A stretch of DNA of 44,717 nt, taken from the NCBI GenBank assembly GCA_036609835.1, contig GCA_036609835.1_4358.1; one strand, 5' to 3'. How positions within the stretch are numbered: the stretch's first letter is position 1; each line of letters starts with the position of its first letter. The notes beneath the pieces are model-generated. The model saw only the letters and a list, made by a program, of their open reading frames with translations, was not told the origin of the DNA and made no database searches. The position numbers and the translations under genes are program-made. Source of the DNA: a phage. Below are positions 8,103 through 43,164 of the stretch, one piece after another.

Positions 8103-8519
8103 CTACTTTTCCTGCAATTGGTGAAGCTGTTCGTTGTGGAAAACAACAACGTGTTCAGCGAGGCGTTTATATTGTGAAAAAAGAGTATTCAGGTTCTCTT
8201 TATTAAATTCATCGTCGAGACTCCAACCGTTAACCAGTTCAAGTGCTAACTGGCGGTTAAGGTCCGTCGCGGCGTCTTCCATCTTAATGTTATATTCCGA
8301 GAAATCTTTCAGTTCCTCGCATTTATCACGAAGCGGCTTCAGTTTACCTAACGACGCGCGGTACGCCAGGGTAAATGCACGCATGGCTTTAACCGCAACG
8401 TCTGCCTCCGGTGAAACAACGTTCAGCCACTCCCCTGAATCGGTGCCGTCTTTCAGTGGGATCGGCATACGGGCGCCTTTTTCTGCCTCAGCTTCGTAAT
8501 AAAAATCAGAAAGTTTCAT
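8103..8519 (-). CDS. Tail assembly chaperone (lambda G-like), 138 aa
   Basis: Acidic protein upstream of tape measure with AAAGGA RBS; ends ...CAGGAAAAGTAG, overlapped by an open -1 frame. Confidence 0.6.
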   Translation of the reverse strand: MKLSDFYYEAEAEKGARMPIPLKDGTDSGEWLNVVSPEADVAVKAMRAFTLAYRASLGKLKPLRDKCEELKDFSEYNIKMEDAATDLNRQLALELVNGWSLDDEFNKENLNTLFSQYKRLAEHVVVFHNEQLHQLQEK

Positions 8520-8626
8520 TCTTTAATCCTTTGGTTAAGAGGTTACGGGTTAAGGTTAATGCGCCAGACGGGAACCACCCGCTTTTCGTGTGCGACACTA
8601 GGCGCAAAATTATTCTATCACATTAC

Positions 8627-8655
8627 TTGCACACCCCAATATAATAGTGTACTAT
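8627..8655 (+). promoter_or_regulatory. Sigma70-type promoter TTGCAC-N17-TACTAT with AATAG-N4-CTATT palindrome, driving the plus-strand insert operon
   Basis: ttgcacaccccaatataatagtgtactat; 19-mer gcacaccccaatataatag is repeated exactly at 18182; same motif in reverse at 29839-29867. Confidence 0.6.
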
Positions 8656-8696
8656 TCACTTACACCAACGATGTTATCCCAAACAGGAGCTACACC

Positions 8697-8888
8697 ATGA
8701 CGGGTATTACTATGTTCTTCTTAATCATTATCGTTTTAGTTTATTTTATTCCATTTCTCGTGGCGCATATGCGCGACCATAAAGCGAAATTAGCGATATT
8801 CATGGCTAATCTGTTTCTTGGATGGGTTCTGCTGCCGTGGGTATTTATTTTAATCTGGGCTTGCAACTCGAATGTCAAAGAGAAGTGA
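8697..8888 (+). CDS. Small membrane protein of the superinfection-immunity (Imm-like) family, 63 aa
   Basis: ATG 8697 after AAACAGGAG; MTGITMFFLIIIVLVYFIPFLVAHMRDHKAKLAIFMANLFLGWVLLPWVFILIWA matches the YF.P..A..R.H....I...N..LGW...W...L.WA signature recalled from memory. Confidence 0.6.
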   Translation: MTGITMFFLIIIVLVYFIPFLVAHMRDHKAKLAIFMANLFLGWVLLPWVFILIWACNSNVKEK

Positions 8889-8925
8889 GCTAGTATAGGA
8901 CAAATCCTAAACACGAGGAATAAAC

Positions 8926-10056
8926 ATGGCCCGGAAGAAAATAACCGACGAACAGTTGCAGGAAGAATTGAACGCCGGTATGAAGAATGTAGATATCGCC
9001 CGTAAATACGGCATCTCAGACCGCGTTATTCGTATCCGTAAAGCGAAGCTGGCTAAGAAAGGCGTAGGCCACGGGCGCGACGTTAGTCACCTTGTACCAG
9101 ACGGTTACAAGATTAAAGGAACGTCGTCCCTGGTGGACGAGTTCGGCAACACTAAGTTGCAATGGGTTAAGACCGACGCTGATGCCGAACGTCAGGTTGA
9201 ATTGATGAAAGCCGTAATAGAGGGCATGAAGTCAGAGATTACGCCCGTTGCGCCTGTTAAACCGGCACGAGCCAAACGTGACGATAAACTACTCAATCTT
9301 TACACGGTATCTGATTTCCATCTCGGTATGCTGGCATGGGCCGATGAGAGCGGCGACGACTGGGACATGAAGATTGCAGAAGACCTGTTCTCTCGGTGGT
9401 TCGACGCGGCGTTTCAGAAAGCACCGGATGCAGGAACAGGAGTTATTAACCTGCTTGGGGACTTCGCACACTTCGATAGTCTTGATGCCGTTACCCCCGA
9501 GTCGCGCCATGTATTAGATGCGGATACTCGCTATCAGAAACTGGTACGTTACATGATTCGTATGGTCCGCCGTGTTGTTGATATGGCGCTGGTTAAGCAT
9601 CACACAGTAAAACTTTTAATCGTTCAAGGTAACCACGACCCTGTTGGCTCCGTATGGCTTGCCGAAATGTTCACGGTTTTATACTCAAACGACAGCCGAG
9701 TGATTGTTGATACGTCGCCGGATGTTTACAAGATGGTGCAACACGGCAAAACGACGCTGTTCTTCCATCACGGGCATAAAGCACGATTCGACGCTATCGA
9801 ACCGGTTATGATTGCCAAGTTCCGTAAAGCGTTCGGCGAGAGTGTTTACAGCTACGCCCACGTAGGCCATCTGCACCACCAGAAGATTGTAGAAAGCCGT
9901 AACATGATTGTTGAGCAACACCGCACCTTAGCGGCTAAAGACGCCTACGCCTCTCGCGGCGGATGGATGTCGGGCCGCAGTGCAAATGTAATTACTTATA
10001 GCGCCGAATATGGCGAGGTCGCACGTTTAACTATTTCACCGGAGATGCTGGGATGA
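8926..10056 (+). CDS. N-terminal HTH domain fused to a calcineurin-like metallophosphoesterase, 376 aa
   Basis: HTH-like NVDIARKYGISDRVIRIRKAK; phosphoesterase motifs SDFHLG, LLGDFAH, VQGNHD, FFHHGH, HVGHLHH in canonical order. Confidence 0.6.
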   Translation: MARKKITDEQLQEELNAGMKNVDIARKYGISDRVIRIRKAKLAKKGVGHGRDVSHLVPDGYKIKGTSSLVDEFGNTKLQWVKTDADAERQVELMKAVIEGMKSEITPVAPVKPARAKRDDKLLNLYTVSDFHLGMLAWADESGDDWDMKIAEDLFSRWFDAAFQKAPDAGTGVINLLGDFAHFDSLDAVTPESRHVLDADTRYQKLVRYMIRMVRRVVDMALVKHHTVKLLIVQGNHDPVGSVWLAEMFTVLYSNDSRVIVDTSPDVYKMVQHGKTTLFFHHGHKARFDAIEPVMIAKFRKAFGESVYSYAHVGHLHHQKIVESRNMIVEQHRTLAAKDAYASRGGWMSGRSANVITYSAEYGEVARLTISPEMLG

Positions 10057-10541
10057 AAGATATTGTAATTTTCGATTTAGACGGGACATTGGCCGACGGT
10101 ACCAATCGCTTACACCTGTTACCAAAAGATAACTACGGAGAAACGTGGGCGTGGAAGCCATTTAACATGGCCTGCAAAGATGACGCTCCGATATACGACA
10201 ATATCCATTTGTGTAGCGTACTGTGGCATTCCGGACTTACTATAATTATCCTTACCGGGCGAAGTGATGACGCTGAGGAGGAGACTCGCGAATGGTTACG
10301 AGAGAATAACGTTAGGTTTGACACGCTAATCATGCGCAGCAAACACGACAACAGAAAAGACATCGTAATTAAAGAAGAGGTGTTGCGTGCTTTCGGACTG
10401 GAAAGAATCTTGTGTGCGTTCGACGACTCTCCAGCGGTAATAAAGCATTTCCGTGACCTCGGCATAACCGCACACGCAGTTACCGAATACGACTGTAACG
10501 GGAACTCTACACACTTAAAACCACACGGGAGCGATAAATAA
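10053..10541 (+). CDS. HAD-family phosphatase resembling the 3'-phosphatase domain of T4 polynucleotide kinase-phosphatase, 162 aa
   Basis: DxDGT motif (IVIFDLDGTLADG), GRSDD, RKDIVIKEEVL and FDDSPAVIKHFRDLGI align by eye with T4 Pnkp C-terminal motifs; ATGA start/stop overlap. Confidence 0.6.
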   Translation: MKDIVIFDLDGTLADGTNRLHLLPKDNYGETWAWKPFNMACKDDAPIYDNIHLCSVLWHSGLTIIILTGRSDDAEEETREWLRENNVRFDTLIMRSKHDNRKDIVIKEEVLRAFGLERILCAFDDSPAVIKHFRDLGITAHAVTEYDCNGNSTHLKPHGSDK

Positions 10542-11095
10542 TGGCTAAGGTAATTATTCTTAATGGCCCTGCGGGTTGCGGGAAAGACACGCTTGCTATG
10601 GCGCTGGTAGAAATGGGCTTTGCGAAAGGAACTACCAGTTTCAAGAATCCAATGTTCAATATTGCTTTGGCAGCGTTAGGCCAGGATGCTTACCACGAAT
10701 TTCTCGACGGCTACGACGACCGGGCGCGGAAAGAAAAACCCGAGGGTTTTCTTAATGGGTTGTCCCGCCGCCGGTTAATGATTGCCATTTCTGAGCAATT
10801 CATTAAACCGGTATTCGGCGATGATTATTTCGGTAAGTATCTTGCTGAAAACTTGCCTGACGGCGACGAAGTTTTTGTAGTGTCCGATGGTGGATTCGCC
10901 AGTGAAGTTGCCCCTATCGTCGCCGCGGGGCATGACGTGCGAATCGTCCGCCTCCATCGTGACGGCTATACGTTCATCTGCGATAGCCGTGGCTATCTGT
11001 ACGATGTTAGTGGTGTAAAAGATTACGACACCTACATCATACCGGGTGACGTTAAATCGAACGTTATAGACATTGCTTTAAAATTAGGTTTGTAA
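10541..11095 (+). CDS. Deoxynucleoside monophosphate kinase-like P-loop kinase (T4 gp1-like), 184 aa
   Basis: Walker A GPAGCGKDT; RRRLMIAISEQF and VFVVSDGGFASEV...VRIVRLHRDG resemble T4 dNMP kinase blocks recalled from memory. Confidence 0.55.
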   Translation: MAKVIILNGPAGCGKDTLAMALVEMGFAKGTTSFKNPMFNIALAALGQDAYHEFLDGYDDRARKEKPEGFLNGLSRRRLMIAISEQFIKPVFGDDYFGKYLAENLPDGDEVFVVSDGGFASEVAPIVAAGHDVRIVRLHRDGYTFICDSRGYLYDVSGVKDYDTYIIPGDVKSNVIDIALKLGL

Positions 11096-11126
11096 GAAAA
11101 AGGCCCCGAAAGGGGCCTTAGTTTTA
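11096..11126. terminator. Bidirectional rho-independent terminator
   Basis: aaaaaggccccgaaaggggccttagtttt: GC stem with A-run upstream and T-run downstream; between convergent kinase and major tail genes. Confidence 0.7.
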
Positions 11127-12296
11127 TGCGTAGGTGATACGTTGAATTACGATAGACGACTGGTACTGATTGCCGGTAGCCTGGCCTTCAATGGACTGAG
11201 TGATTGACTCAGGCCCACCAATCTCAGGTGTAACCGCCGTAAGCTCTGCACGTTTCAAACTGAAAGACATAGCCCCGTTTACCCCTGCCAGAATAGAGTT
11301 AATCTCTACCTGCTGCTCGTTGATAAACTTCTGAATCATCGCCATGTCGTACAGCTTGCCAGAGATAGAGAATGTGTTAGCTGCGCGGCTACGTTCCACA
11401 AAAGCCACATTAGTGTTGCCTAGTTCGAACTGCGCGGACGCGCTGTTATCGTTGGTGATAGTCAGGCTATCGCAACGCAACGGGGTAGCGCCGTCGAACA
11501 CGGAAACGTCAACCGAAGAGAACGGCTCATCACCAAAAGTAACAGATGAGAAGTTGGAACCGGTCGGCGGCGTAGTGAGAATCTCCTGACTGCGACCGAT
11601 GAATGGGAAGCTGCCAGTTACCATCGCGTTAACAGCCTGCTCGATGGTAAAACCAGAAACTTCCACGCCTTTGGTTAACGTGTACGCGTCAGTACCGCCG
11701 CACTGGCCTTTGTACCAGGTAAGGATAGAGAACGTCTTACACGTGTTACCGGTTTCCAGCGTGTCGCCAGTTTTAGCCTTACTAGTTTTTGTCTCGGTGG
11801 TCAGGGTGTGTTGGATGCCCGCACCAGTAACAACCGTAGCCGTTACTGCAGTAACAATAAATGGTTTTGCGTTATCGCCTGTTAAATCGGTAAACGCAAT
11901 CAGGTCGCCTACCCCAACTCCGTCAGTGATAAAGCTGCCGGTGGCACGTGTGAACGTCTTGCCAGCCGGTGCGACGGTAATCGATAGCCCTGACAGAGAT
12001 ACGCCAGCCTGCCACGTAGAGCCTAAAGCCCCGGCTAGCCAGTCATCCTGGCTTTTAGAGCTAAGCTCAATAGCGTATTCTCCGCTAACCTGCTTGTTAC
12101 CGGTGCGGATGGATGTGGTTTCTCGGCTGCCGTCAAGTTCGTTGGAGGTCAGCGTGTCGCGGGTAATGGCAGGAACGCCGCCCGTGTTGCGCAACGGCGA
12201 CCATACCGGGTTAGCCGGTGTTACGCCCGGGGTCACTTCCGCCACATAGAATTGCGCGGTATTCGCGCCCTTAAAAGGAGTTGTAGCCATATTCAC
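11124..12296 (-). CDS. Major tail protein (putative), 390 aa
   Basis: Ser/Thr/Gly-rich ORF between tail completion genes and chaperones, followed by a strong terminator. Confidence 0.55.
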   Translation of the reverse strand: MNMATTPFKGANTAQFYVAEVTPGVTPANPVWSPLRNTGGVPAITRDTLTSNELDGSRETTSIRTGNKQVSGEYAIELSSKSQDDWLAGALGSTWQAGVSLSGLSITVAPAGKTFTRATGSFITDGVGVGDLIAFTDLTGDNAKPFIVTAVTATVVTGAGIQHTLTTETKTSKAKTGDTLETGNTCKTFSILTWYKGQCGGTDAYTLTKGVEVSGFTIEQAVNAMVTGSFPFIGRSQEILTTPPTGSNFSSVTFGDEPFSSVDVSVFDGATPLRCDSLTITNDNSASAQFELGNTNVAFVERSRAANTFSISGKLYDMAMIQKFINEQQVEINSILAGVNGAMSFSLKRAELTAVTPEIGGPESITQSIEGQATGNQYQSSIVIQRITYA

Positions 12297-18179: not shown

Positions 18180-18208
18180 TTGCACACCCCAATATAATAG
18201 GGTACTAT
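18180..18208 (+). promoter_or_regulatory. Sigma70-type promoter TTGCAC-N17-TACTAT, near-identical to the one at 8627
   Basis: ttgcacaccccaatataatagggtactat followed by AAACAGGAGG RBS and ATG 18236. Confidence 0.6.
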
Positions 18209-18235
18209 TCAGTTAACTTAAACAGGAGGTGAAAA

Positions 18236-18439
18236 ATGTATGCAATTTGCGAAGTAGTTCAAGAGTTCGATGAAGAGTTCGACGGTGACTTGTGCCGGGT
18301 TAAAAAGGTTCTGCAGGTTTTCCCTGACGCAATGTCTGCTTACAAGGCATTAGATATATTTGAACCTGGAAGATACGGGGATTATGACACTGTTCTGAGG
18401 GTTGTCCATGAGCAGGATTTAAACACAAGATTCCGTTGA
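18236..18439 (+). CDS. Hypothetical protein, 67 aa (moron)
   Basis: Opposite strand to flanking head genes; own promoter, strong RBS and downstream terminator; acidic. Confidence 0.6.
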   Translation: MYAICEVVQEFDEEFDGDLCRVKKVLQVFPDAMSAYKALDIFEPGRYGDYDTVLRVVHEQDLNTRFR

Positions 18440-18440
18440 A

Positions 18441-18470
18441 AACTAAGGCCCCTTAATGGGGCCTTTTATC
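18441..18470. terminator. Bidirectional rho-independent terminator
   Basis: aaactaaggccccttaatggggccttttatc. Confidence 0.65.
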
Positions 18471-18930
18471 ATTCTGGTTTAGCGACCTTCGCCACTTTAC
18501 TGACGGCCTCTACGCCACCGGCATCGGTAACTTTAACGAAGTATTCACCAACTGCATTAACCGTCAGAGACAAGGCCTCTTCCGGGGCGTTTACCACTTC
18601 CTTACCGTCTTTGTACCAGGTCAGAGCATACGGTTCTTTACCCGCCTTAACTTCGACAGTGATAGTTGCGCTGCCATCTGTAAGTTCAGTGTCTTTCGGT
18701 TGCACAGAGAAATACACGTCACCAGCGTCCGCCAGATACGGAATTTCATAAAGCATACCCGCGGCAGAGAGTGCGATACCTGTCTTGTCTGCAAACGGCA
18801 TATCGTCTACTGGTGTACCGAGTACACTTTCATCTTCAATAAACACCACGTTCTCGCCAGAGCCAGACACGCGGGCGTACTGGACTACGCGACGCGACGG
18901 TACATCAGTTACTTTGAAAAAGCCCATCAT
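18469..18930 (-). CDS. Ig-like domain protein (putative head decoration), 153 aa
   Basis: ATITVEVKAGKEPYALTWYKDGKEV...GEYFVKVTD resembles an Ig-like fold. Confidence 0.45.
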   Translation of the reverse strand: MMGFFKVTDVPSRRVVQYARVSGSGENVVFIEDESVLGTPVDDMPFADKTGIALSAAGMLYEIPYLADAGDVYFSVQPKDTELTDGSATITVEVKAGKEPYALTWYKDGKEVVNAPEEALSLTVNAVGEYFVKVTDAGGVEAVSKVAKVAKPE

Positions 18931-19973
18931 TATTCCCCTTTCAGATAATCAGCAACACGTTTATCGAGTTCCGCCATCTGCTTAAGCGTGAGCGGATTCC
19001 CGAAACCATCTACAGATATTACGCGAAACTCTTCCGGCGATATACCGCTGTTACGGAAAATCTTACCTCGCACCGGGCCGAGGGCCTGGTCCTGAAACCA
19101 CGCCGGTTGTTGTTTAAGGAACTCGTAGTAAGTGGTGTCTGCGCTTACCTGGGTTCCACCTTCTGCGCCCTTAGCTGCGCGTTTTGCGCCCTTATCGAGG
19201 AAGTCGAACTCTGAACTGATTACCGGTGCCGTGGTACTTCTGCACCCAAAATGGGCCGGAGGCATCGGCCCTTTACCGATTTCCCACATCATTCCGTCTC
19301 TGGCCCTGCAAATCGTGCTGGTACGGCTGTCCAGCGTTGATACCCACTCGTACCTATCGATGATGTCGTCGTTCTGGCGGTACGTCTCGTTGCGGGCTTC
19401 GTTGGACACGTGAGACAGCGCAGTACGGATTACTGTAGCTGCATGTTTCTCTGATACGTCAGCCAGCCCGCCTTTACCGACTACTTCTTTAACAATCTGC
19501 CGTGTTGTCTTGCCCTGAACAAAGCCCATCTTAACGCCGGTGACCAGGCGCGCCACCTCCGCTTCACCCCAACCTGACATCAGCTTGGTGAAATCAACGG
19601 GCTTGTCGCTCAATGATAATGGTTGAAACTCGGCAGCGGCCCATACCTGCTCAGCGGTAGGCGTAACAAATTCCGCGTCTACGTTGGCGGTCAGTGTCTT
19701 TACGTTCCACTCAGCCTCATACGCCGCCAGTTCCTTAAGGTCTTCTGTCAGCTTTGTCTGCCAGTCGCCCGTAAGCCCCACCAGTGCTTCTTCAAGGTCG
19801 CGTAACAATTTATTCAGTCGGGCAGTGCTTCGCCCGTCGTCACCGAATAACAGCACCTGCCGTTTTATTTCGTCCCGCATCTCCTGAATGAACGGTGCTA
19901 GGTCTTTCACTTCACCAGATGCGGTGCGTTGCAGCCAAATCTGGTGGCTGATTAGTGATGTCAGTAAGCTCAT
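18930..19973 (-). CDS. Minor head / head morphogenesis protein (Mu F-like), 347 aa
   Basis: Position after portal; C-terminal STICRARDG...PPAHFGCRS Cys/His block typical of this family. Confidence 0.6.
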   Translation of the reverse strand: MSLLTSLISHQIWLQRTASGEVKDLAPFIQEMRDEIKRQVLLFGDDGRSTARLNKLLRDLEEALVGLTGDWQTKLTEDLKELAAYEAEWNVKTLTANVDAEFVTPTAEQVWAAAEFQPLSLSDKPVDFTKLMSGWGEAEVARLVTGVKMGFVQGKTTRQIVKEVVGKGGLADVSEKHAATVIRTALSHVSNEARNETYRQNDDIIDRYEWVSTLDSRTSTICRARDGMMWEIGKGPMPPAHFGCRSTTAPVISSEFDFLDKGAKRAAKGAEGGTQVSADTTYYEFLKQQPAWFQDQALGPVRGKIFRNSGISPEEFRVISVDGFGNPLTLKQMAELDKRVADYLKGE

Positions 19974-20054
19974 ATACCCTCCTGTTTCGATATGACAATC
20001 ATATCAGTCGGTAACGTATTGGCATAATCATACGCATTTAAGGTTAAAAAGAGC

Positions 20055-20085
20055 TTGATTAAATTCTACATTCAAATGTAGAATT
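20055..20085 (+). promoter_or_regulatory. Promoter TTGATT-N18-TAGAAT overlapped by a perfect 11-bp-arm palindrome (candidate operator)
   Basis: aattctacatt-ca-aatgtagaatt at 20062-20085; AAACAGGAG RBS and ATG 20116 follow. Confidence 0.55.
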
Positions 20086-20115
20086 TAAACGTACACTTAA
20101 ACAGGAGAAATACAC

Positions 20116-20769
20116 ATGAAACTGCAAACATTAGAGTTCCCTTATGGAGAAATCACTTTTGACCGTGAAAACTTTATTAACGTAAACGAGCTGGTTGACC
20201 AGATGAACCGTTGGCGTTTAGACAACGGCATGGGGGCCAGAGAGCTTCGCCAGGTCATGGCAACGGATGGCTTCAAGATTTTCAAGGAGGAATGCGAAAA
20301 ACAACTCGGAATCGAGAATGCCATAAGGGCGACGAAAGGCCGAAACGGTCGCACCTTTGCATGTCTCCATCTGGCAGTATATATTGCTGAGCAATACAGC
20401 GCCTATTTCCATTTCCTCGTTATCGACCGCTTTATCACACAACGGCAGGTAGAACTACGAAACATTGGCGCGGTGAGCTTTGTCGAGCTTAACGCTGCCG
20501 TTAGTCGAATGATCGAGCGCACGGAGGGAAGAATTGGCCACAGTGGACACTTCATACAGGTGGCTAAAGCGGTAAAGGAATCCGTAGATATCCGCGACGT
20601 AACGGGTTTCGATACATGGGACTCTCAGGATGCGAAGACCAATCAGTTGCGAAGTGACATCCAGAAAGCTCTGGTGACGCTTCTTGACATGGAGGCCGTT
20701 AATACATGGGGTGAACTGAAAGAGGCGATACCTCGGGTTGTGCGTAAATGTGCGGCTAATATACGTTAA
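20116..20769 (+). CDS. KilA-N-like domain protein (putative), 217 aa (moron)
   Basis: KGRNGRTFACLHLAVYIAEQYSAYFHF resembles the conserved KilA-N core; own promoter/operator and terminator; opposite strand to portal and head genes. Confidence 0.45.
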   Translation: MKLQTLEFPYGEITFDRENFINVNELVDQMNRWRLDNGMGARELRQVMATDGFKIFKEECEKQLGIENAIRATKGRNGRTFACLHLAVYIAEQYSAYFHFLVIDRFITQRQVELRNIGAVSFVELNAAVSRMIERTEGRIGHSGHFIQVAKAVKESVDIRDVTGFDTWDSQDAKTNQLRSDIQKALVTLLDMEAVNTWGELKEAIPRVVRKCAANIR

Positions 20770-20796
20770 AACTAAGGCCCCTAGCGGGGCCTTTCT
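20770..20796. terminator. Bidirectional rho-independent terminator
   Basis: aaactaaggcccctagcggggcctttctattt. Confidence 0.65.
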
Positions 20797-20798
20797 AT

Positions 20799-22268
20799 TT
20801 ACTCCTGTTGTTGCGCGGACTGCGGAATTTCTCCTGCTACCTGAGCAACCGCACCCAACGGCAGCGGTGCGTCCCCAATAGCGTTCTGAATGTCCTCATC
20901 GGTCCAGTCGGTTACGCCAGCCTTACGCAACGCGGCGTAGTAAGCAGTAGCTGGTAGCAGGCCTGCGTTAATGTCCGCCATCCACTGAGCGCGGTCCTGA
21001 GCTGTCATCGGTTGCAGGAAGAACTCCATGTTCAGCTTGAATTCAATCTCAGTATCTTCACTAAGCCCAAGCATACCCGCAACCCAGCGCAACGCATCGG
21101 TATACGCCATGCTTACATTACGTGCTATTGTTGCCATGACTGACGTGTCGGCGCCGCGTTGCAGGCGGGCCGATTCCGCGGTGATTTGCTGCGTCGGGGT
21201 GATAAGCTGCGCGCCAATCTGGATGGCCTGATTCTCTTTATCCAGCATATTCTGTTTGGCGAGGTTAGTTTCCGCCGCCTGAACCAGAAACGCATTTCCG
21301 CCGGAGCCGATGTTGTGGCCTGAACGCGACCCCATGCGTATGCCGTGTGGGTTGGCTTCTTTCCACTGCTCCATGCTCATGTTCTCGCCGGGGGCAATGA
21401 ACAGTGTCGGTTGACCTACTATAAAGCTGGCCTCTTCCACATCGGCCGAATTTCTGAAGTGTCCTATATTTAGCTCAGCTAACGGCAGTAAAGGCGCATC
21501 GTCTATAGTGGCGTCGTTGTTGCTTGCGCCAATGAACGTGAACGGGATTTTACCGCGCAACTGTTCGCCGAGTTCCGGGAAGATTTCGATTACTTCATCC
21601 TGTGCGCCACCTTCGGCATCGAAGCGGTAGATGCGCTGGCGGTAGCGACCGTCAATCAGGTCAAGGACGCGGTATTGCTCGCCGAATTTTGTTTCAAACT
21701 CAGCGCCTGGTTCCGAGTATTCCCATGCCTCACGCAATACAACCATCGTCACGCGGTTCACTGAGCCGATGCGGGTGAGTCTCCAGTTGATAATGTTCTC
21801 CGCGGTATAGAATGCGATTACCGGGTTTAATAATCCCGCGTTCTGCTCTGCCGCCGTTGCTGCGGCTGTTTCCGGGGCGTCCACCAGCAACCCGCCACGG
21901 CCTATCGAGTTAATCTCCATCAGCGTATCCTGCGCGTGCTGCCACAGCCCGACACCTGAACCGTCAGCGTTGTGCAACAGGTACTCAAGTTCAGGCGGGA
22001 TAATCTGCTCAGGGTCTTTGCGCATCACTGACCCCGTCATCCCCGCCAGCGTGCGTTTGGTGAAATTGTAGCAGATAGCGCCGTTCTCGTATTCTTCCTG
22101 TCGCTGTGCTGCGTAGGTCTGGTCAGGCTCGTTCTTCCCGACGTTGCGCAGATAGCGGATAAGGTCGCCTTCAAGAGCGTGGCGTACCTTCTGCCATTTA
22201 TCGAAGTGATGCAGCCATTCCCGGTGTTTTGTCTTAACACCCTGATTCTGACCGTTCATAGTTAACAT
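20799..22268 (-). CDS. Portal protein, 489 aa
   Basis: Size and position immediately downstream of large terminase. Confidence 0.7.
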   Translation of the reverse strand: MLTMNGQNQGVKTKHREWLHHFDKWQKVRHALEGDLIRYLRNVGKNEPDQTYAAQRQEEYENGAICYNFTKRTLAGMTGSVMRKDPEQIIPPELEYLLHNADGSGVGLWQHAQDTLMEINSIGRGGLLVDAPETAAATAAEQNAGLLNPVIAFYTAENIINWRLTRIGSVNRVTMVVLREAWEYSEPGAEFETKFGEQYRVLDLIDGRYRQRIYRFDAEGGAQDEVIEIFPELGEQLRGKIPFTFIGASNNDATIDDAPLLPLAELNIGHFRNSADVEEASFIVGQPTLFIAPGENMSMEQWKEANPHGIRMGSRSGHNIGSGGNAFLVQAAETNLAKQNMLDKENQAIQIGAQLITPTQQITAESARLQRGADTSVMATIARNVSMAYTDALRWVAGMLGLSEDTEIEFKLNMEFFLQPMTAQDRAQWMADINAGLLPATAYYAALRKAGVTDWTDEDIQNAIGDAPLPLGAVAQVAGEIPQSAQQQE

Positions 22269-28717: not shown

Positions 28718-28866
28718 ATTCTTCGCTCACCCCGTTATAGACGCCGTTGTAGTCCCCGTCGCAGATGAACGTGTAGAGCATATCTTCGTACTCGTCCTGC
28801 AACTCACCTAAAGTTACTTCGCTATAATCTTTCATCTTCTGTCTCTCCTCTAGTTTGTGTAAATGA

Positions 28867-28895
28867 ATAGTAGCCTATTCTATCTTAGTGTGCAA
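28867..28895 (-). promoter_or_regulatory. Sigma70-type promoter TTGCAC-N17-TACTAT (minus strand)
   Basis: Reverse complement reads ttgcacactaagatagaataggctactat. Confidence 0.55.
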
Positions 28896-29804: not shown

Positions 29805-29838
29805 TTCTAAATTCCTTATGTCTCGTTTCGATAAGTGA

Positions 29839-29867
29839 ATAGTATCCTATTATGTTGGGGTGTGCAA
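29839..29867 (-). promoter_or_regulatory. Leftward early promoter TTGCAC-N17-TACTAT with AATAG-N4-CTATT palindrome
   Basis: Reverse complement ttgcacaccccaacataataggatactat; near-identical to plus-strand promoters at 8627 and 18180. Confidence 0.6.
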
Positions 29868-43135: not shown

Positions 43136-43164
43136 AAAAGGCCCCGTTTGGGGCCTTAGTTTTA
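43136..43164. terminator. Bidirectional rho-independent terminator between convergent HNH and tailspike genes
   Basis: aaaaggccccgtttggggccttagtttt. Confidence 0.7.

What the first reader, a model, noticed from the sequence alone, without database searches (positions are those of the whole stretch)
8520..11126. Early-promoter-driven nucleotide/end-processing operon inserted inside the tail gene cluster
A four-gene plus-strand operon sits between the tail chaperone and major tail genes, which run on the other strand. It encodes an Imm-like membrane protein, an HTH-metallophosphoesterase fusion, a HAD phosphatase resembling the T4 Pnkp 3'-phosphatase domain, and a T4 gp1-like dNMP kinase. It has its own promoter, of the same type as the leftward early promoter, and ends in a bidirectional terminator. 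A kinase plus two unrelated phosphoesterases as separate proteins recalls split polynucleotide kinase-phosphatase healing enzymes (which counter tRNA/RNA-cleaving defences) or a dNMP salvage route. A phosphoesterase with an N-terminal HTH domain is an unusual architecture. The combination is a candidate undescribed anti-defence or nucleotide-pool system.
Basis: partly seen in the sequence, partly recalled or inferred. Interest (0 to 1): 0.8.

Follow-up and report, generated by a model that had tools for sequence, protein, structure and literature searches.

The report
Phage nuclease–phosphatase–dNMP kinase operon
A real, separately transcribed four-gene block inside the tail genes of a known E. 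coli phage type most likely excludes rival phages and recycles DNA breakdown products into building blocks for phage DNA; it is conserved and already annotated in many relatives, so it is only moderately new.

Summary
The window is a Kagunavirus (99.3% identical to phage vB_EcoS-22664BS2). A plus-strand operon sits between the minus-strand tail-chaperone and tail-tube genes. It has its own promoter, one of four copies of one type in the genome, and ends in a hairpin terminator.

The genes encode:
- a T4 Imm-type membrane protein;
- an HTH-metallophosphoesterase (MPE) whose model is closest to the nucleases PolD-DP1, Mre11 and SbcD, not to Ser/Thr phosphatases;
- a HAD phosphatase with every catalytic residue of the T4 Pnkp phosphatase domain, in the same PHROG as the T5 5'-dNMP phosphatase Dmp;
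- a kinase whose best structural match is T4 gp1 dNMP kinase.

The last three genes are translationally coupled. The same order, MPE-HAD-kinase, recurs in Drexlerviridae and Autographiviridae, in some cases with a different MPE family.

The split polynucleotide kinase-phosphatase (healing) reading is not supported. The kinase is of the gp1 type and the phage has no ligase. The nucleotide-pool reading fits best, by analogy with T5 A1/Dmp/Dnk. Related kinases are proven dNMP kinases that trigger the Kongming defence.

The HTH-MPE architecture is widespread rather than unusual, but its function is untested. Interest is moderate.

The parts
8627..8660 (+). Promoter of the operon. The -35 is TTGCAC (8627-8632), followed by a 17-nt spacer and the -10 TACTAT (8650-8655). 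It is one of four copies of the same element in the genome.
   Evidence: The 19-mer core is found 3 times and the TTGCAY-N17-TAYTATTC pattern 4 times, against 0 in shuffles. The copies align over about 35 bp. Jerseyvirus keeps TTGCAT-N17-TATTAT at the homologous spot. The function and the start site are inferred.
8697..8888 (+). Imm-type superinfection-immunity membrane protein. It is 63 aa with two hydrophobic helices, and an AGGAG ribosome-binding site lies 8 nt upstream.
   Evidence: Pfam PF14373 matches at E 9.7e-14, 51.4 bits against a cut-off of 27.9. phrog_1039 matches at E 1.1e-23.
8926..10056 (+). HTH-metallophosphoesterase of 376 aa. It has an N-terminal sigma70-region-4/LuxR-type HTH (about residues 8-44), a beta-hairpin with a helix (61-102), and an MPE catalytic domain (119-376). 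It is a putative Mn-dependent DNase.
10053..10541 (+). Stand-alone HAD phosphatase of the Pnkp/Dmp clade, 162 aa. Its start overlaps the MPE stop.
   Evidence: Pfam HAD_PNKP matches at 3.8e-20. A profile search of the PDB finds Pnkp1 at 6e-16 and T4 Pnkp at 3e-10. hhalign to the T4 Pnkp phosphatase domain gives probability 97.5. It falls in phrog_415 (4e-63), which also holds T5 Dmp. Catalytic residues D8, D10, R19, R70, D103 and D124 are invariant.
10541..11095 (+). T4 gp1-fold dNMP kinase of 184 aa, with P-loop GPAGCGKDT and Lys15. Its start overlaps the HAD stop.
11100..11119 (.). Bidirectional intrinsic terminator hairpin, AAGGCCCC-GAAA-GGGGCCTT, between the kinase gene and the convergent tail gene.
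   Evidence: Scan result. Folding gives -19.8 and -15.4 kcal/mol, and no shuffle folds as well. The same stem occurs at 18445, 20774 and 43138.
8531..8644 (+). A 37-aa ORF annotated in relatives. It is probably not a gene, because it lies upstream of the promoter, runs into it and has a TTG start.
   Evidence: It is annotated in NC_073324 and PQ436005. It has no PHROG match. It overlaps the promoter element.

Best explanation
This is an accessory operon of a Kagunavirus. It is read by host RNA polymerase from a sigma70-type promoter shared with the leftward small-gene region, and it is insulated from the antisense tail genes by a hairpin terminator.

The first gene makes a T4 Imm-type inner-membrane protein that probably blocks superinfection.

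The next three genes are translationally coupled and most likely form a nucleotide-recycling cassette:
1. A DNA-tethered (HTH) metallophosphoesterase of the Mre11/SbcD/PolD-DP1 nuclease type digests DNA, presumably the host chromosome, to 5'-dNMPs.
2. A gp1-type dNMP kinase converts these to dNDPs. Host NDK then turns the dNDPs into dNTPs for phage replication.
3. A Pnkp/Dmp-clade HAD phosphatase does one of two things. It may remove 3'-phosphate blocks so the exonuclease can proceed. Or it may dephosphorylate part of the (d)NMP pool, as T5 Dmp does, which would also blunt the dNMP-kinase-triggered Kongming immunity.

Shown: the gene anatomy, the folds, intact catalytic residues, the coupling and the recurrent synteny. 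Inferred: the substrates, the host-DNA target, the timing and any anti-defence benefit.
For: Anatomy and coupling:
- ORFs, overlapping stop/start codons, promoter and terminator.

MPE:
- The metal-binding motif residues are invariant or at least 90% conserved.
- The HTH is supported across the family.

Kinase:
- The best structural match is T4 dNMP kinase 1DEK, and it shares phrog_139 with gp1.
- Its closest non-Kagunavirus relatives (50% identity) are Hanrivervirus kinases. The DNK of Hanrivervirus KarlJaspers triggers Kongming, as does the DNK of Klebsiella phage VAC2. Rao1 DNK phosphorylates all four dNMPs and needs Lys15 (bioRxiv 10.1101/2024.12.20.629578).

HAD:
- It has the catalytic set of T4 Pnkp phosphatase and shares phrog_415 with T5 Dmp.

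Synteny:
- MPE-HAD-kinase occurs in the same order and on the same strand in Webervirus, Erwinia phiEa100 and Aeromonas Tola.
- In 64 diverse IMG/VR kinase loci: 7 MPE704-HAD-KIN, 3 MPE221-HAD-KIN, 5 MPE221-KIN, 1 MPE704-KIN and 9 HAD-KIN.
- An MPE family with no detectable sequence relationship takes the same position.

Precedent:
- T5 combines the metallophosphatase A1, which is sufficient for host DNA degradation (bioRxiv 10.64898/2026.04.02.716235), with Dmp and Dnk.
- The rV5 homologue of the kinase lies near ThyA and RNR.
- The Drexlerviridae adjacency has been read as 'enhancing nucleotide supply' (PMC13164509).
Against: - The MPE occurs without HAD or kinase in Jerseyvirus, Dhillonvirus and Vibrio phages. 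It is a core gene in Drexlerviridae regardless of the other two.
- 39 of 64 diverse kinase loci have neither neighbour.
- No data show host DNA degradation by any Kagunavirus.
- If the HAD is 5'-specific, co-translating it with a dNMP kinase looks futile.
- By sequence the HAD is closer to the Pnkp 3'-phosphatase (E 7e-12) than to T5 Dmp (E 1.7e-5).
- Deleting dnk in phage Rao1 had no fitness cost.
- The kinase does not reach the Pfam DNMK model.
- One time course of a Kagunavirus puts the Imm gene in a class its authors call late, together with the polymerase gene (PMC12645636).
Confidence: 0.5

Rival explanations
1. The three enzymes are neighbours, not a pathway. The HTH-MPE is a core phage nuclease with its own role, such as replication, recombination or DNA processing. 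HAD plus kinase is a separate mobile accessory pair that tends to land downstream of it. In that pair the kinase boosts dNTP supply, and the HAD acts as a Dmp-like shield that lowers dAMP so that kinase-sensing immunity (Kongming) is not triggered.
For: - The MPE occurs alone in Jerseyvirus, Dhillonvirus and Vibrio phages.
- The MPE is present in 508 of 522 Drexlerviridae, while PNK and dNMP kinase are present in only some.
- 9 IMG/VR loci have HAD-kinase without an MPE.
- Dmp and DNK co-occur in phage genomes, and Dmp counters Kongming.
- T5 Dmp is in the same PHROG as this HAD.
Against: - The order MPE-HAD-kinase is fixed in three phage families and the genes have overlapping stop/start codons.
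- A second MPE family with no detectable sequence relationship sits in the same position, with or without HAD.
- By sequence the HAD is nearer to Pnkp than to Dmp.
Confidence: 0.28
2. This is a split end-healing system. The MPE trims ends or opens 2',3'-cyclic phosphates, the HAD removes 3'-phosphates and the kinase phosphorylates 5'-OH ends. Broken tRNA or DNA made by host defence nucleases can then be resealed by a host or phage ligase.
For: - The only solved relatives of the HAD by sequence are polynucleotide kinase-phosphatases: Pnkp1 at 6e-16 and T4 Pnkp at 3e-10. All T4 Pnkp phosphatase residues are conserved.
- In phiEa100 and Aeromonas Tola the triad is followed directly by an ATP-dependent DNA ligase gene.
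- The MPE fold is that of DNA-end-processing nucleases.
Against: - The kinase has the gp1 fold and PHROG. It matches T4 Pnkp only over the 25-residue P-loop.
- Experimentally tested relatives are dNMP kinases.
- A PHROG-annotated Kagunavirus has no DNA or RNA ligase, and the Webervirus locus has none either.
- A ligase at the end of the DNA-metabolism genes is an ordinary position in SP6-like podophages (own knowledge).
- No PADLOC or defence-related match was found.
Confidence: 0.12
3. The HTH-MPE is mainly a regulator or host-takeover factor. A sigma-region-4-like domain targets promoters or RNA polymerase, and the phosphoesterase acts on a signalling nucleotide or on DNA at specific sites. 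The two downstream enzymes are unrelated to this role.
For: - The N-terminal domains of family members match Sigma70_r4_2, GerE and other regulator HTH models.
- The HTH is confidently modelled.
- T5 A1, also a metallophosphatase, is additionally needed for host shut-off and works with the DNA-binding protein A2.
Against: - There is no homology to T5 A1 beyond one motif (hhalign probability 16%).
- There is no match to cyclic-nucleotide phosphodiesterase families above the nuclease matches.
- The idea is speculative.
Confidence: 0.05

Closest known systems
Phage T5 A1 / Dmp / Dnk (host DNA degradation and dNMP handling)
   Same: The enzyme trio is the same: a metallophosphoesterase, a HAD phosphatase and a dNMP kinase. 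T5 Dmp and this HAD are in the same PHROG, phrog_415. A1 is a predicted metallophosphatase that is sufficient for host DNA degradation. T5 Dnk and relatives of this kinase behave alike as Kongming triggers.
   Different: The MPE is not detectably homologous to A1. They fall in phrog_704 and phrog_1745, and hhalign gives 16% probability. In T5, A1 and dmp are pre-early genes on the first-step-transfer DNA and dnk is not among them. Here all three genes are co-translated. The HAD is only remotely similar to Dmp (E 1.7e-5). Here the HTH is fused to the MPE, whereas T5 has a separate DNA-binding protein, A2.
T4 Pnkp (PseT) with RNA ligase: tRNA healing and sealing
   Same: The HAD domain is homologous and has identical catalytic residues: D8, D10, R19, R70, D103 and D124 correspond to T4 D165, D167, R176, R213, D254 and D277.
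   Different: There is no Pnk-type kinase domain, no fusion and no ligase in the phage. The stand-alone HADs carry an insert of about 16 residues after motif I. T4 Pnkp lacks it and T5 Dmp has an insert of similar length.
T4 gp1 deoxynucleoside monophosphate kinase (PDB 1DEK)
   Different: Identity is only 21%. This protein is 184 aa against 241 aa for gp1. It does not match Pfam DNMK PF21448. Its substrate range is unknown. The related Rao1 enzyme takes all four dNMPs, while gp1 takes dGMP, dTMP and hm-dCMP.
Drexlerviridae 'DNA repair exonuclease - polynucleotide kinase - dNMP kinase' cassette upstream of the lysis genes (PMC13164509)
   Same: The three protein families and their order are the same, at 40-58% identity.
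   Different: The genomic site differs. In Drexlerviridae the cassette sits at the end of the replication module, before the holin. Here it is a counter-oriented island between the tail tube and tail chaperone genes, preceded by an Imm gene, with its own promoter and terminator.
Mre11 / SbcD / archaeal PolD DP1 nucleases
   Same: The MPE core fold and the metal-binding motifs are shared.
   Different: No Rad50/SbcC partner gene is annotated in the relatives examined. There is an N-terminal HTH instead. Sequence similarity is negligible (E > 0.5 in a profile search of the PDB).

Membership tests
T4 gp1-type dNMP kinase (phrog_139 / Pfam DNMK PF21448) | P-loop with the catalytic lysine (GxxxxGKD/T) | tested here: met
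   The P-loop is GPAGCGKDT with K15. G12, G14, K15 and D16 are invariant across 46 homologues.
T4 gp1-type dNMP kinase (phrog_139 / Pfam DNMK PF21448) | Fold closest to gp1 among P-loop kinases | tested here: met
T4 gp1-type dNMP kinase (phrog_139 / Pfam DNMK PF21448) | Match to the curated Pfam DNMK model | tested here: not met
   PF21448 gives no hit at E <= 0.1, while T4 gp1 scores 3e-107. The two do share phrog_139.
T4 gp1-type dNMP kinase (phrog_139 / Pfam DNMK PF21448) | Phosphorylates dNMPs to dNDPs | not testable with these tools
   This has been shown only for relatives such as Rao1 DNK, and indirectly for the KarlJaspers and VAC2 DNKs.
T4 Pnkp-type polynucleotide kinase-phosphatase (healing enzyme) | HAD DxDxT 3'-phosphatase domain with the essential Asp and Arg residues | tested here: met
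   Pfam HAD_PNKP matches at 3.8e-20. hhalign gives probability 97.5. D8, D10, R19, R70, D103 and D124 are conserved.
T4 Pnkp-type polynucleotide kinase-phosphatase (healing enzyme) | Pnk-type 5'-OH polynucleotide kinase domain | tested here: not met
T4 Pnkp-type polynucleotide kinase-phosphatase (healing enzyme) | Kinase and phosphatase on one polypeptide, with a partner ligase in the genome | tested here: not met
   The genes are separate. No ligase is annotated in the complete PHROG-annotated relative K-02. A DNA ligase does follow the triad in phiEa100 and Tola.
T4 Pnkp-type polynucleotide kinase-phosphatase (healing enzyme) | Activity on 3'-phosphate / 5'-OH nucleic-acid ends | not testable with these tools
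   This needs an enzyme assay.
T5 Dmp-type 5'-deoxynucleotidase | Same remote-homology family and the same catalytic Asp pair | tested here: met
   Both proteins are in phrog_415, at 4e-63 and 3.6e-57. The DLDGT motif and the R, K-D and DD positions align.
T5 Dmp-type 5'-deoxynucleotidase | Specific sequence relationship to Dmp rather than to Pnkp | tested here: inconclusive
   hhalign to Dmp gives probability 78.6 and E 1.7e-5. hhalign to T4 Pnkp gives 97.5 and 6.8e-12. However, the insert after motif I is shared with Dmp and not with Pnkp.
Mre11/SbcD/DP1-type metallophosphoesterase nucleases | Calcineurin-like motifs with metal ligands | tested here: met
   D130-x-H132, G178-D179, N236-H237, H282 and H317 are invariant in 48 sequences, and H315 is conserved in at least 90%.
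Mre11/SbcD/DP1-type metallophosphoesterase nucleases | Fold nearer to the nuclease clade than to other MPEs | tested here: met
Mre11/SbcD/DP1-type metallophosphoesterase nucleases | Rad50/SbcC-type ATPase partner | tested here: not met
   No such gene is annotated next to the MPE or elsewhere in the complete records of two relatives.
PPP-type Ser/Thr protein phosphatases (lambda PPase type) | GDxHG / GDxVDRG / GNHE motifs and PPP fold | tested here: not met
T4 Imm superinfection immunity protein (PF14373) | Pfam model above the gathering score; small two-helix membrane protein | tested here: met
   The score is 51.4 bits against a cut-off of 27.9. Two hydrophobic stretches are visible in the 63-aa sequence. 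The exclusion function was not tested.

The most novel reading that the evidence does not exclude
The HTH-MPE, HAD and dNMP kinase may form one physically coupled machine. It would be anchored on DNA by a sigma-region-4-like HTH and would convert host chromosome directly into phage dNTP precursors. The HAD would either unblock 3'-phosphate ends or selectively remove dAMP. The phage would then gain nucleotide supply and also evade nucleotide-depleting defences and Kongming-type, kinase-sensing defences. That would give a function to a very large uncharacterised phage nuclease family (phrog_704, which is core in Drexlerviridae and Guernseyvirinae). It would be a fused counterpart of T5 A1+A2.
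Probability: 0.2. Interest if true: 0.6.

Novelty: new member of a known kind. Interest (0 to 1): 0.35.

Why it matters
The operon is ordinary for this phage genus, but three points are useful.

1. The protein that phage annotation pipelines call 'polynucleotide kinase' (phrog_415) has no kinase domain. It shares its family with the T5 5'-dNMP phosphatase, so thousands of annotations are misleading.

2. The HTH-metallophosphoesterase belongs to a very large family that is core in at least two phage groups, and it has no tested function. Its repeated pairing with a dNMP kinase, also seen for a second MPE family with no detectable sequence relationship, makes a clear and cheap hypothesis: it is an exonuclease that feeds a salvage kinase.

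3. Kinases of this family are the trigger of the Kongming defence. Whether the adjacent phosphatase protects the phage therefore bears directly on the host range of therapeutic Kagunavirus and Drexlerviridae phages.

Tried and rejected
- Single-sequence searches of the PDB found only an HTH for the MPE and only the P-loop for the kinase. Profile searches did little better: MPE E >= 0.067, kinase P-loop ATPases only. Structure prediction was therefore needed.
- BLASTP and hhalign of the kinase against T4 gp1 were inconclusive. Fold comparison settled the question.
- Homology of the MPE to T5 A1 was tested and not found (hhalign probability 16%, one motif only).
- Homology of the MPE to the phrog_221 MPE of Aeromonas phage Tola was tested and not found (probability 0.07%). 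The phrog_221 proteins do carry recognisable MPE motifs.
- NCBIfam gave nothing above its cut-offs. PADLOC gave no hit.
- The scan's promoter call, ATCACA-17-TATAAT, was rejected in favour of TTGCAC-17-TACTAT. Only the latter is conserved across the genome copies and in Jerseyvirus.
- The block CGGGAACCACCCGCTTTTC upstream of the promoter is conserved. It was tested as a hairpin and is not significantly stable (z -0.98 and -0.40).
- I looked for phage Rao1, whose kinase has been characterised, among the Kagunavirus hits and did not find it. Its taxonomy is unclassified.
- I looked for T5 dnk in T5 positions 1-12 kb and 38-72 kb and did not find it. The T5 Dnk link therefore rests on the paper.
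- Literature searches on T1 host-DNA degradation and on metallophosphoesterases in Drexlerviridae returned nothing.
- A Kagunavirus RNA time course exists, but it sampled up to 120 min over more than one infection cycle. It does not resolve early versus late expression.


Full report
**What the window is.** The region 8400-11200 is 99.3% identical to Escherichia phage vB_EcoS-22664BS2 (Guernseyvirinae, Kagunavirus) and matches 318 phage records. The window is essentially a whole 44.7-kb siphophage genome. The structural genes run on the minus strand. The replication genes run on the plus strand at 30.9-43 kb: helicase-primase, exonuclease, gp2.5-like SSB, DNA polymerase, methyltransferase, helicase and HNH endonuclease.

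**Observation check: ORFs and coupling.** The four plus-strand ORFs are present:
- Imm-like, 8697-8888. The ATG is at 8697 and an AGGAG ribosome-binding site lies 8 nt upstream.
- MPE, 8926-10056.
- HAD, 10053-10541.
- Kinase, 10541-11095.

The MPE stop overlaps the HAD start (GGATGA). The HAD stop overlaps the kinase start (TAATG). The three enzymes are therefore translationally coupled.

**Observation check: flanks.** The flanking genes are minus-strand tail genes. On one side are the tail assembly chaperone, its frameshift extension and the tape measure. On the other is a 390-aa tail protein that relatives annotate as the major tail protein. The operon thus splits the usual order of tail tube, chaperone and tape measure.

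**Observation check: promoter.** The promoter claim holds but needs correcting.
- The 19-mer TTGCACACCCCAATATAAT occurs at 8627(+), 18180(+) and 29867(-), against 0 expected.
- The three copies align over about 35 bp.
- The pattern TTGCAY-N17-TAYTATTC finds a fourth copy at 28895(-).
- In Jerseyvirus the homologous spot reads TTGCAT-N17-TATTAT, while the internal TATAAT is lost.

The functional hexamers are therefore most likely TTGCAC (8627-8632) and TACTAT (8650-8655). Two of the four copies head the leftward small-gene region, which supports 'same type as the leftward early promoter'. Early timing itself is an inference.

**Observation check: terminator.** The hairpin at 11100-11119 is stable on both strands (-19.8 and -15.4 kcal/mol; no shuffle folds as well). 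Its 8-bp stem recurs at 18445, 20774 and 43138. The copies at 20774 and 43138 lie at strand-convergence points, and the copy at 18445 follows a small plus-strand ORF.

**Imm.** Pfam PF14373 matches at 51.4 bits against a cut-off of 27.9, and phrog_1039 matches at E 1e-23. This is a small membrane protein with two hydrophobic helices. A role in superinfection exclusion is inferred from the family name only.

**The 376-aa protein.**
- It falls in phrog_704, labelled 'DNA repair exonuclease', at E 5e-163.
- The family is very large. There are 4586 clusters at 50% identity with E <= 0.001, most about 370-400 aa long, and it is found in 2042 phage records.
- In an alignment of 48 diverse members, the metal-binding residues D130, H132, D179, N236, H237, H282 and H317 are invariant, and H315 is conserved in at least 90%.
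- The AlphaFold model is confident, with pLDDT 91.7. It has a three-helix N-terminal domain (about residues 8-44), a beta-hairpin with a helix, and an MPE core.
- The HTH is weak in this one sequence (GerE E 0.026) but clear across the family: Sigma70_r4_2 at 1.5e-9, GerE at 2.4e-8 and HTH_23 at 9e-6.

The protein is therefore an HTH-tethered, catalytically intact MPE of nuclease type. The architecture is common in phages, not unusual.

**The HAD protein.**
- Pfam HAD_PNKP matches at 3.8e-20.
- The only solved relatives by sequence are Pnkp1 (6e-16) and T4 Pnkp (3e-10).
- hhalign to the T4 Pnkp phosphatase domain gives probability 97.5% and E 7e-12.
- All residues I recall as essential in T4 Pnkp (D165, D167, R176, R213, D254, D277) have invariant counterparts: D8, D10, R19, R70, D103 and D124.
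- Its PHROG, phrog_415 (4e-63), is also the PHROG of T5 Dmp, the 5'-dNMP phosphatase (3.6e-57). T4 Pnkp is in phrog_505 and hits phrog_415 only secondarily.
- Dmp aligns to the HAD profile with the same catalytic positions (probability 78.6%).
- The stand-alone HADs carry an insert of about 16 residues after motif I. Dmp has an insert of similar length and T4 Pnkp has none.

Family membership therefore cannot decide between a 3'-phosphatase acting on nucleic-acid ends and a mononucleotidase. The label 'polynucleotide kinase' used in many annotations is wrong, because the protein has no kinase domain.

**The kinase.**
- It falls in phrog_139 at 3e-44, the PHROG of T4 gp1.
- It has no Pfam DNMK hit, and pairwise and profile comparisons are weak.
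- The model is confident, with pLDDT 94.2.
- The closest non-Kagunavirus relatives are Hanrivervirus kinases at 50% identity and Webervirus kinases at 41%.

**Comparative genomics.**
- All 53 Kagunavirus-level records have HAD next to the kinase.
- Jerseyvirus keeps Imm and the MPE at the same tail locus. There the HAD and kinase are replaced by a small ORF and an antirepressor.
- The order MPE-HAD-kinase recurs in Webervirus before the lysis genes and in the podophage Erwinia phiEa100.
- In Aeromonas Tola the MPE belongs to another family, phrog_221. It has no detectable sequence relationship to phrog_704 but carries recognisable MPE motifs. Pectobacterium Arno160 has phrog_221 MPE followed directly by the kinase.
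- In phiEa100 and Tola a DNA ligase gene follows the triad.
- Dhillonvirus and a Vibrio phage have the MPE alone. The rV5 kinase lies near ThyA and RNR.

I scanned 80 IMG/VR loci that hold a kinase homologue, using local HMMs. All 16 Kagunavirus-like loci have the full triad. The 64 diverse loci (33-54% identity) split as follows:

| Arrangement | Loci |
|---|---|
| MPE704-HAD-kinase | 7 |
| MPE221-HAD-kinase | 3 |
| MPE221-kinase | 5 |
| MPE704-kinase | 1 |
| HAD-kinase without an MPE | 9 |
| Kinase alone | 39 |

Wherever neighbours are present they are on the same strand and in the same order. Some loci are truncated upstream, so associations may be under-counted. Shared ancestry inflates these counts. 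Even so, the presence of two MPE families with no detectable sequence relationship in the same slot argues for a functional link.

**Literature.**
- Zeng et al. (bioRxiv 10.1101/2024.12.20.629578) show that phage dNMP kinases trigger the Kongming system, which converts dAMP to the signal dITP. Rao1 DNK needs Lys15 and phosphorylates all four dNMPs. DNKs from T5, Klebsiella phage VAC2 and Escherichia phage KarlJaspers also trigger it. T5 Dmp blocks it by removing dAMP, and Dmp and DNK co-occur in phage genomes. KarlJaspers is a Hanrivervirus.
- T5 A1 is a predicted metallophosphatase that is necessary and sufficient for host DNA degradation (bioRxiv 10.64898/2026.04.02.716235).
- A 2026 study of Drexlerviridae found the 'DNA repair exonuclease' in 508 of 522 genomes. 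It is often followed by 'polynucleotide kinase' and dNMP kinase, which the authors read as boosting nucleotide supply (PMC13164509).
- A Kagunavirus RNA time course groups the Imm gene with the polymerase and methylase genes rather than with the structural genes. Its sampling does not resolve early versus late (PMC12645636).

**Most likely mechanism (confidence 0.5).** The first gene is an Imm-type exclusion protein. The next three form a co-translated nucleotide-recycling cassette.
1. The HTH-MPE nuclease releases 5'-dNMPs from DNA, presumably host DNA.
2. The gp1-type kinase makes dNDPs, and host NDK completes the conversion to dNTPs.
3. The HAD either unblocks 3'-phosphate ends for the exonuclease or trims the dNMP pool as Dmp does.

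Shown: the anatomy, folds, catalytic residues, coupling and synteny. Inferred: the substrates, the target and the timing.

**Rivals.**
- The MPE is an independent core nuclease, and HAD plus kinase is a separate mobile pair, possibly a kinase with its anti-Kongming shield (0.28).
It is supported by the HAD's similarity to Pnkp and by the ligase next to the triad in two podophages. It is opposed by the gp1-type kinase and by the absence of any ligase in Kagunavirus.
- A regulatory or host-takeover role for the HTH-MPE (0.05).

**Novelty.** The operon is present and annotated in dozens of deposited genomes. Its enzyme families are known, its kinase family has been characterised experimentally, and the three-gene adjacency has been noted in print. 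What remains open is the function of the HTH-MPE family and the specificity of the HAD. I rate it a new member of a known kind, with moderate interest.

Noticed in passing
window 8627-8657 (+), 18180-18210 (+), 28865-28895 (-), 29837-29867 (-): There is a four-member family of near-identical promoter-like elements, TTGCAC-N17-TACTATTC, with about 35 bp conserved in three of them. Two drive plus-strand islands inside the late genes, and two lie in the leftward small-gene region.
   Followed up: partly
window 11100-11119, 18445-18465, 20774-20793, 43138-43157: Four hairpins share the identical 8-bp stem AAGGCCCC/GGGGCCTT and have different loops. None is expected by chance. They look like a standard terminator module reused across the genome; those at 11100, 20774 and 43138 lie at strand-convergence points.
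   Followed up: partly
window 18180-18465 (+): A second counter-oriented mini-cassette sits inside the head genes. It has the same promoter, a 67-aa acidic ORF (18236-18439) with no PHROG match, and the same terminator stem as the operon under study.
   Followed up: partly
window 20054-20793 (+): This is a third plus-strand island between the head-morphogenesis gene (347 aa, 18930-19973) and the portal gene (489 aa, 20799-22268); both names come from the annotation of relative K-02. It holds a 217-aa amidase (phrog_6095, lysis). Upstream is a TTGATT...TAGAAT promoter-like site that contains the palindrome AAATTCTACATTCAAATGTAGAATTT. It ends at the shared terminator stem.
   Followed up: partly
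window 8569-8587: The block CGGGAACCACCCGCTTTTC, just upstream of the operon promoter, is invariant between Kagunavirus and Jerseyvirus. It is not a significantly stable hairpin (z about -1), so its conservation is unexplained.
   Followed up: partly
L007 1996-3000 (Aeromonas phage Tola); L006 2458-3501 (Pectobacterium phage Arno160): A second MPE family, phrog_221, has no detectable sequence similarity to phrog_704. It occupies the same position upstream of the HAD and/or dNMP kinase genes. It also has an extension of about 100 aa in front of the MPE core, whose nature was not tested.
   Followed up: partly
L015 2998-6200 (Erwinia phage phiEa100); L007 1996-5029 (Aeromonas phage Tola): In two podophages the MPE-HAD-kinase triad is followed directly by an ATP-dependent DNA ligase gene. 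This is the only observation that favours an end-repair role.
   Followed up: no
phrog_415 (window 10053-10541; T5 dmp at L010 124-858): PHROG labels phrog_415 'polynucleotide kinase'. Its members here are stand-alone HAD phosphatases with no kinase domain, and it includes the T5 5'-dNMP phosphatase Dmp. The label propagates into many phage annotations.
   Followed up: yes
window 8531-8644 (+): A 37-aa ORF annotated in close relatives lies upstream of the promoter element, runs into it and has a TTG start. It is probably an annotation artefact.
   Followed up: partly
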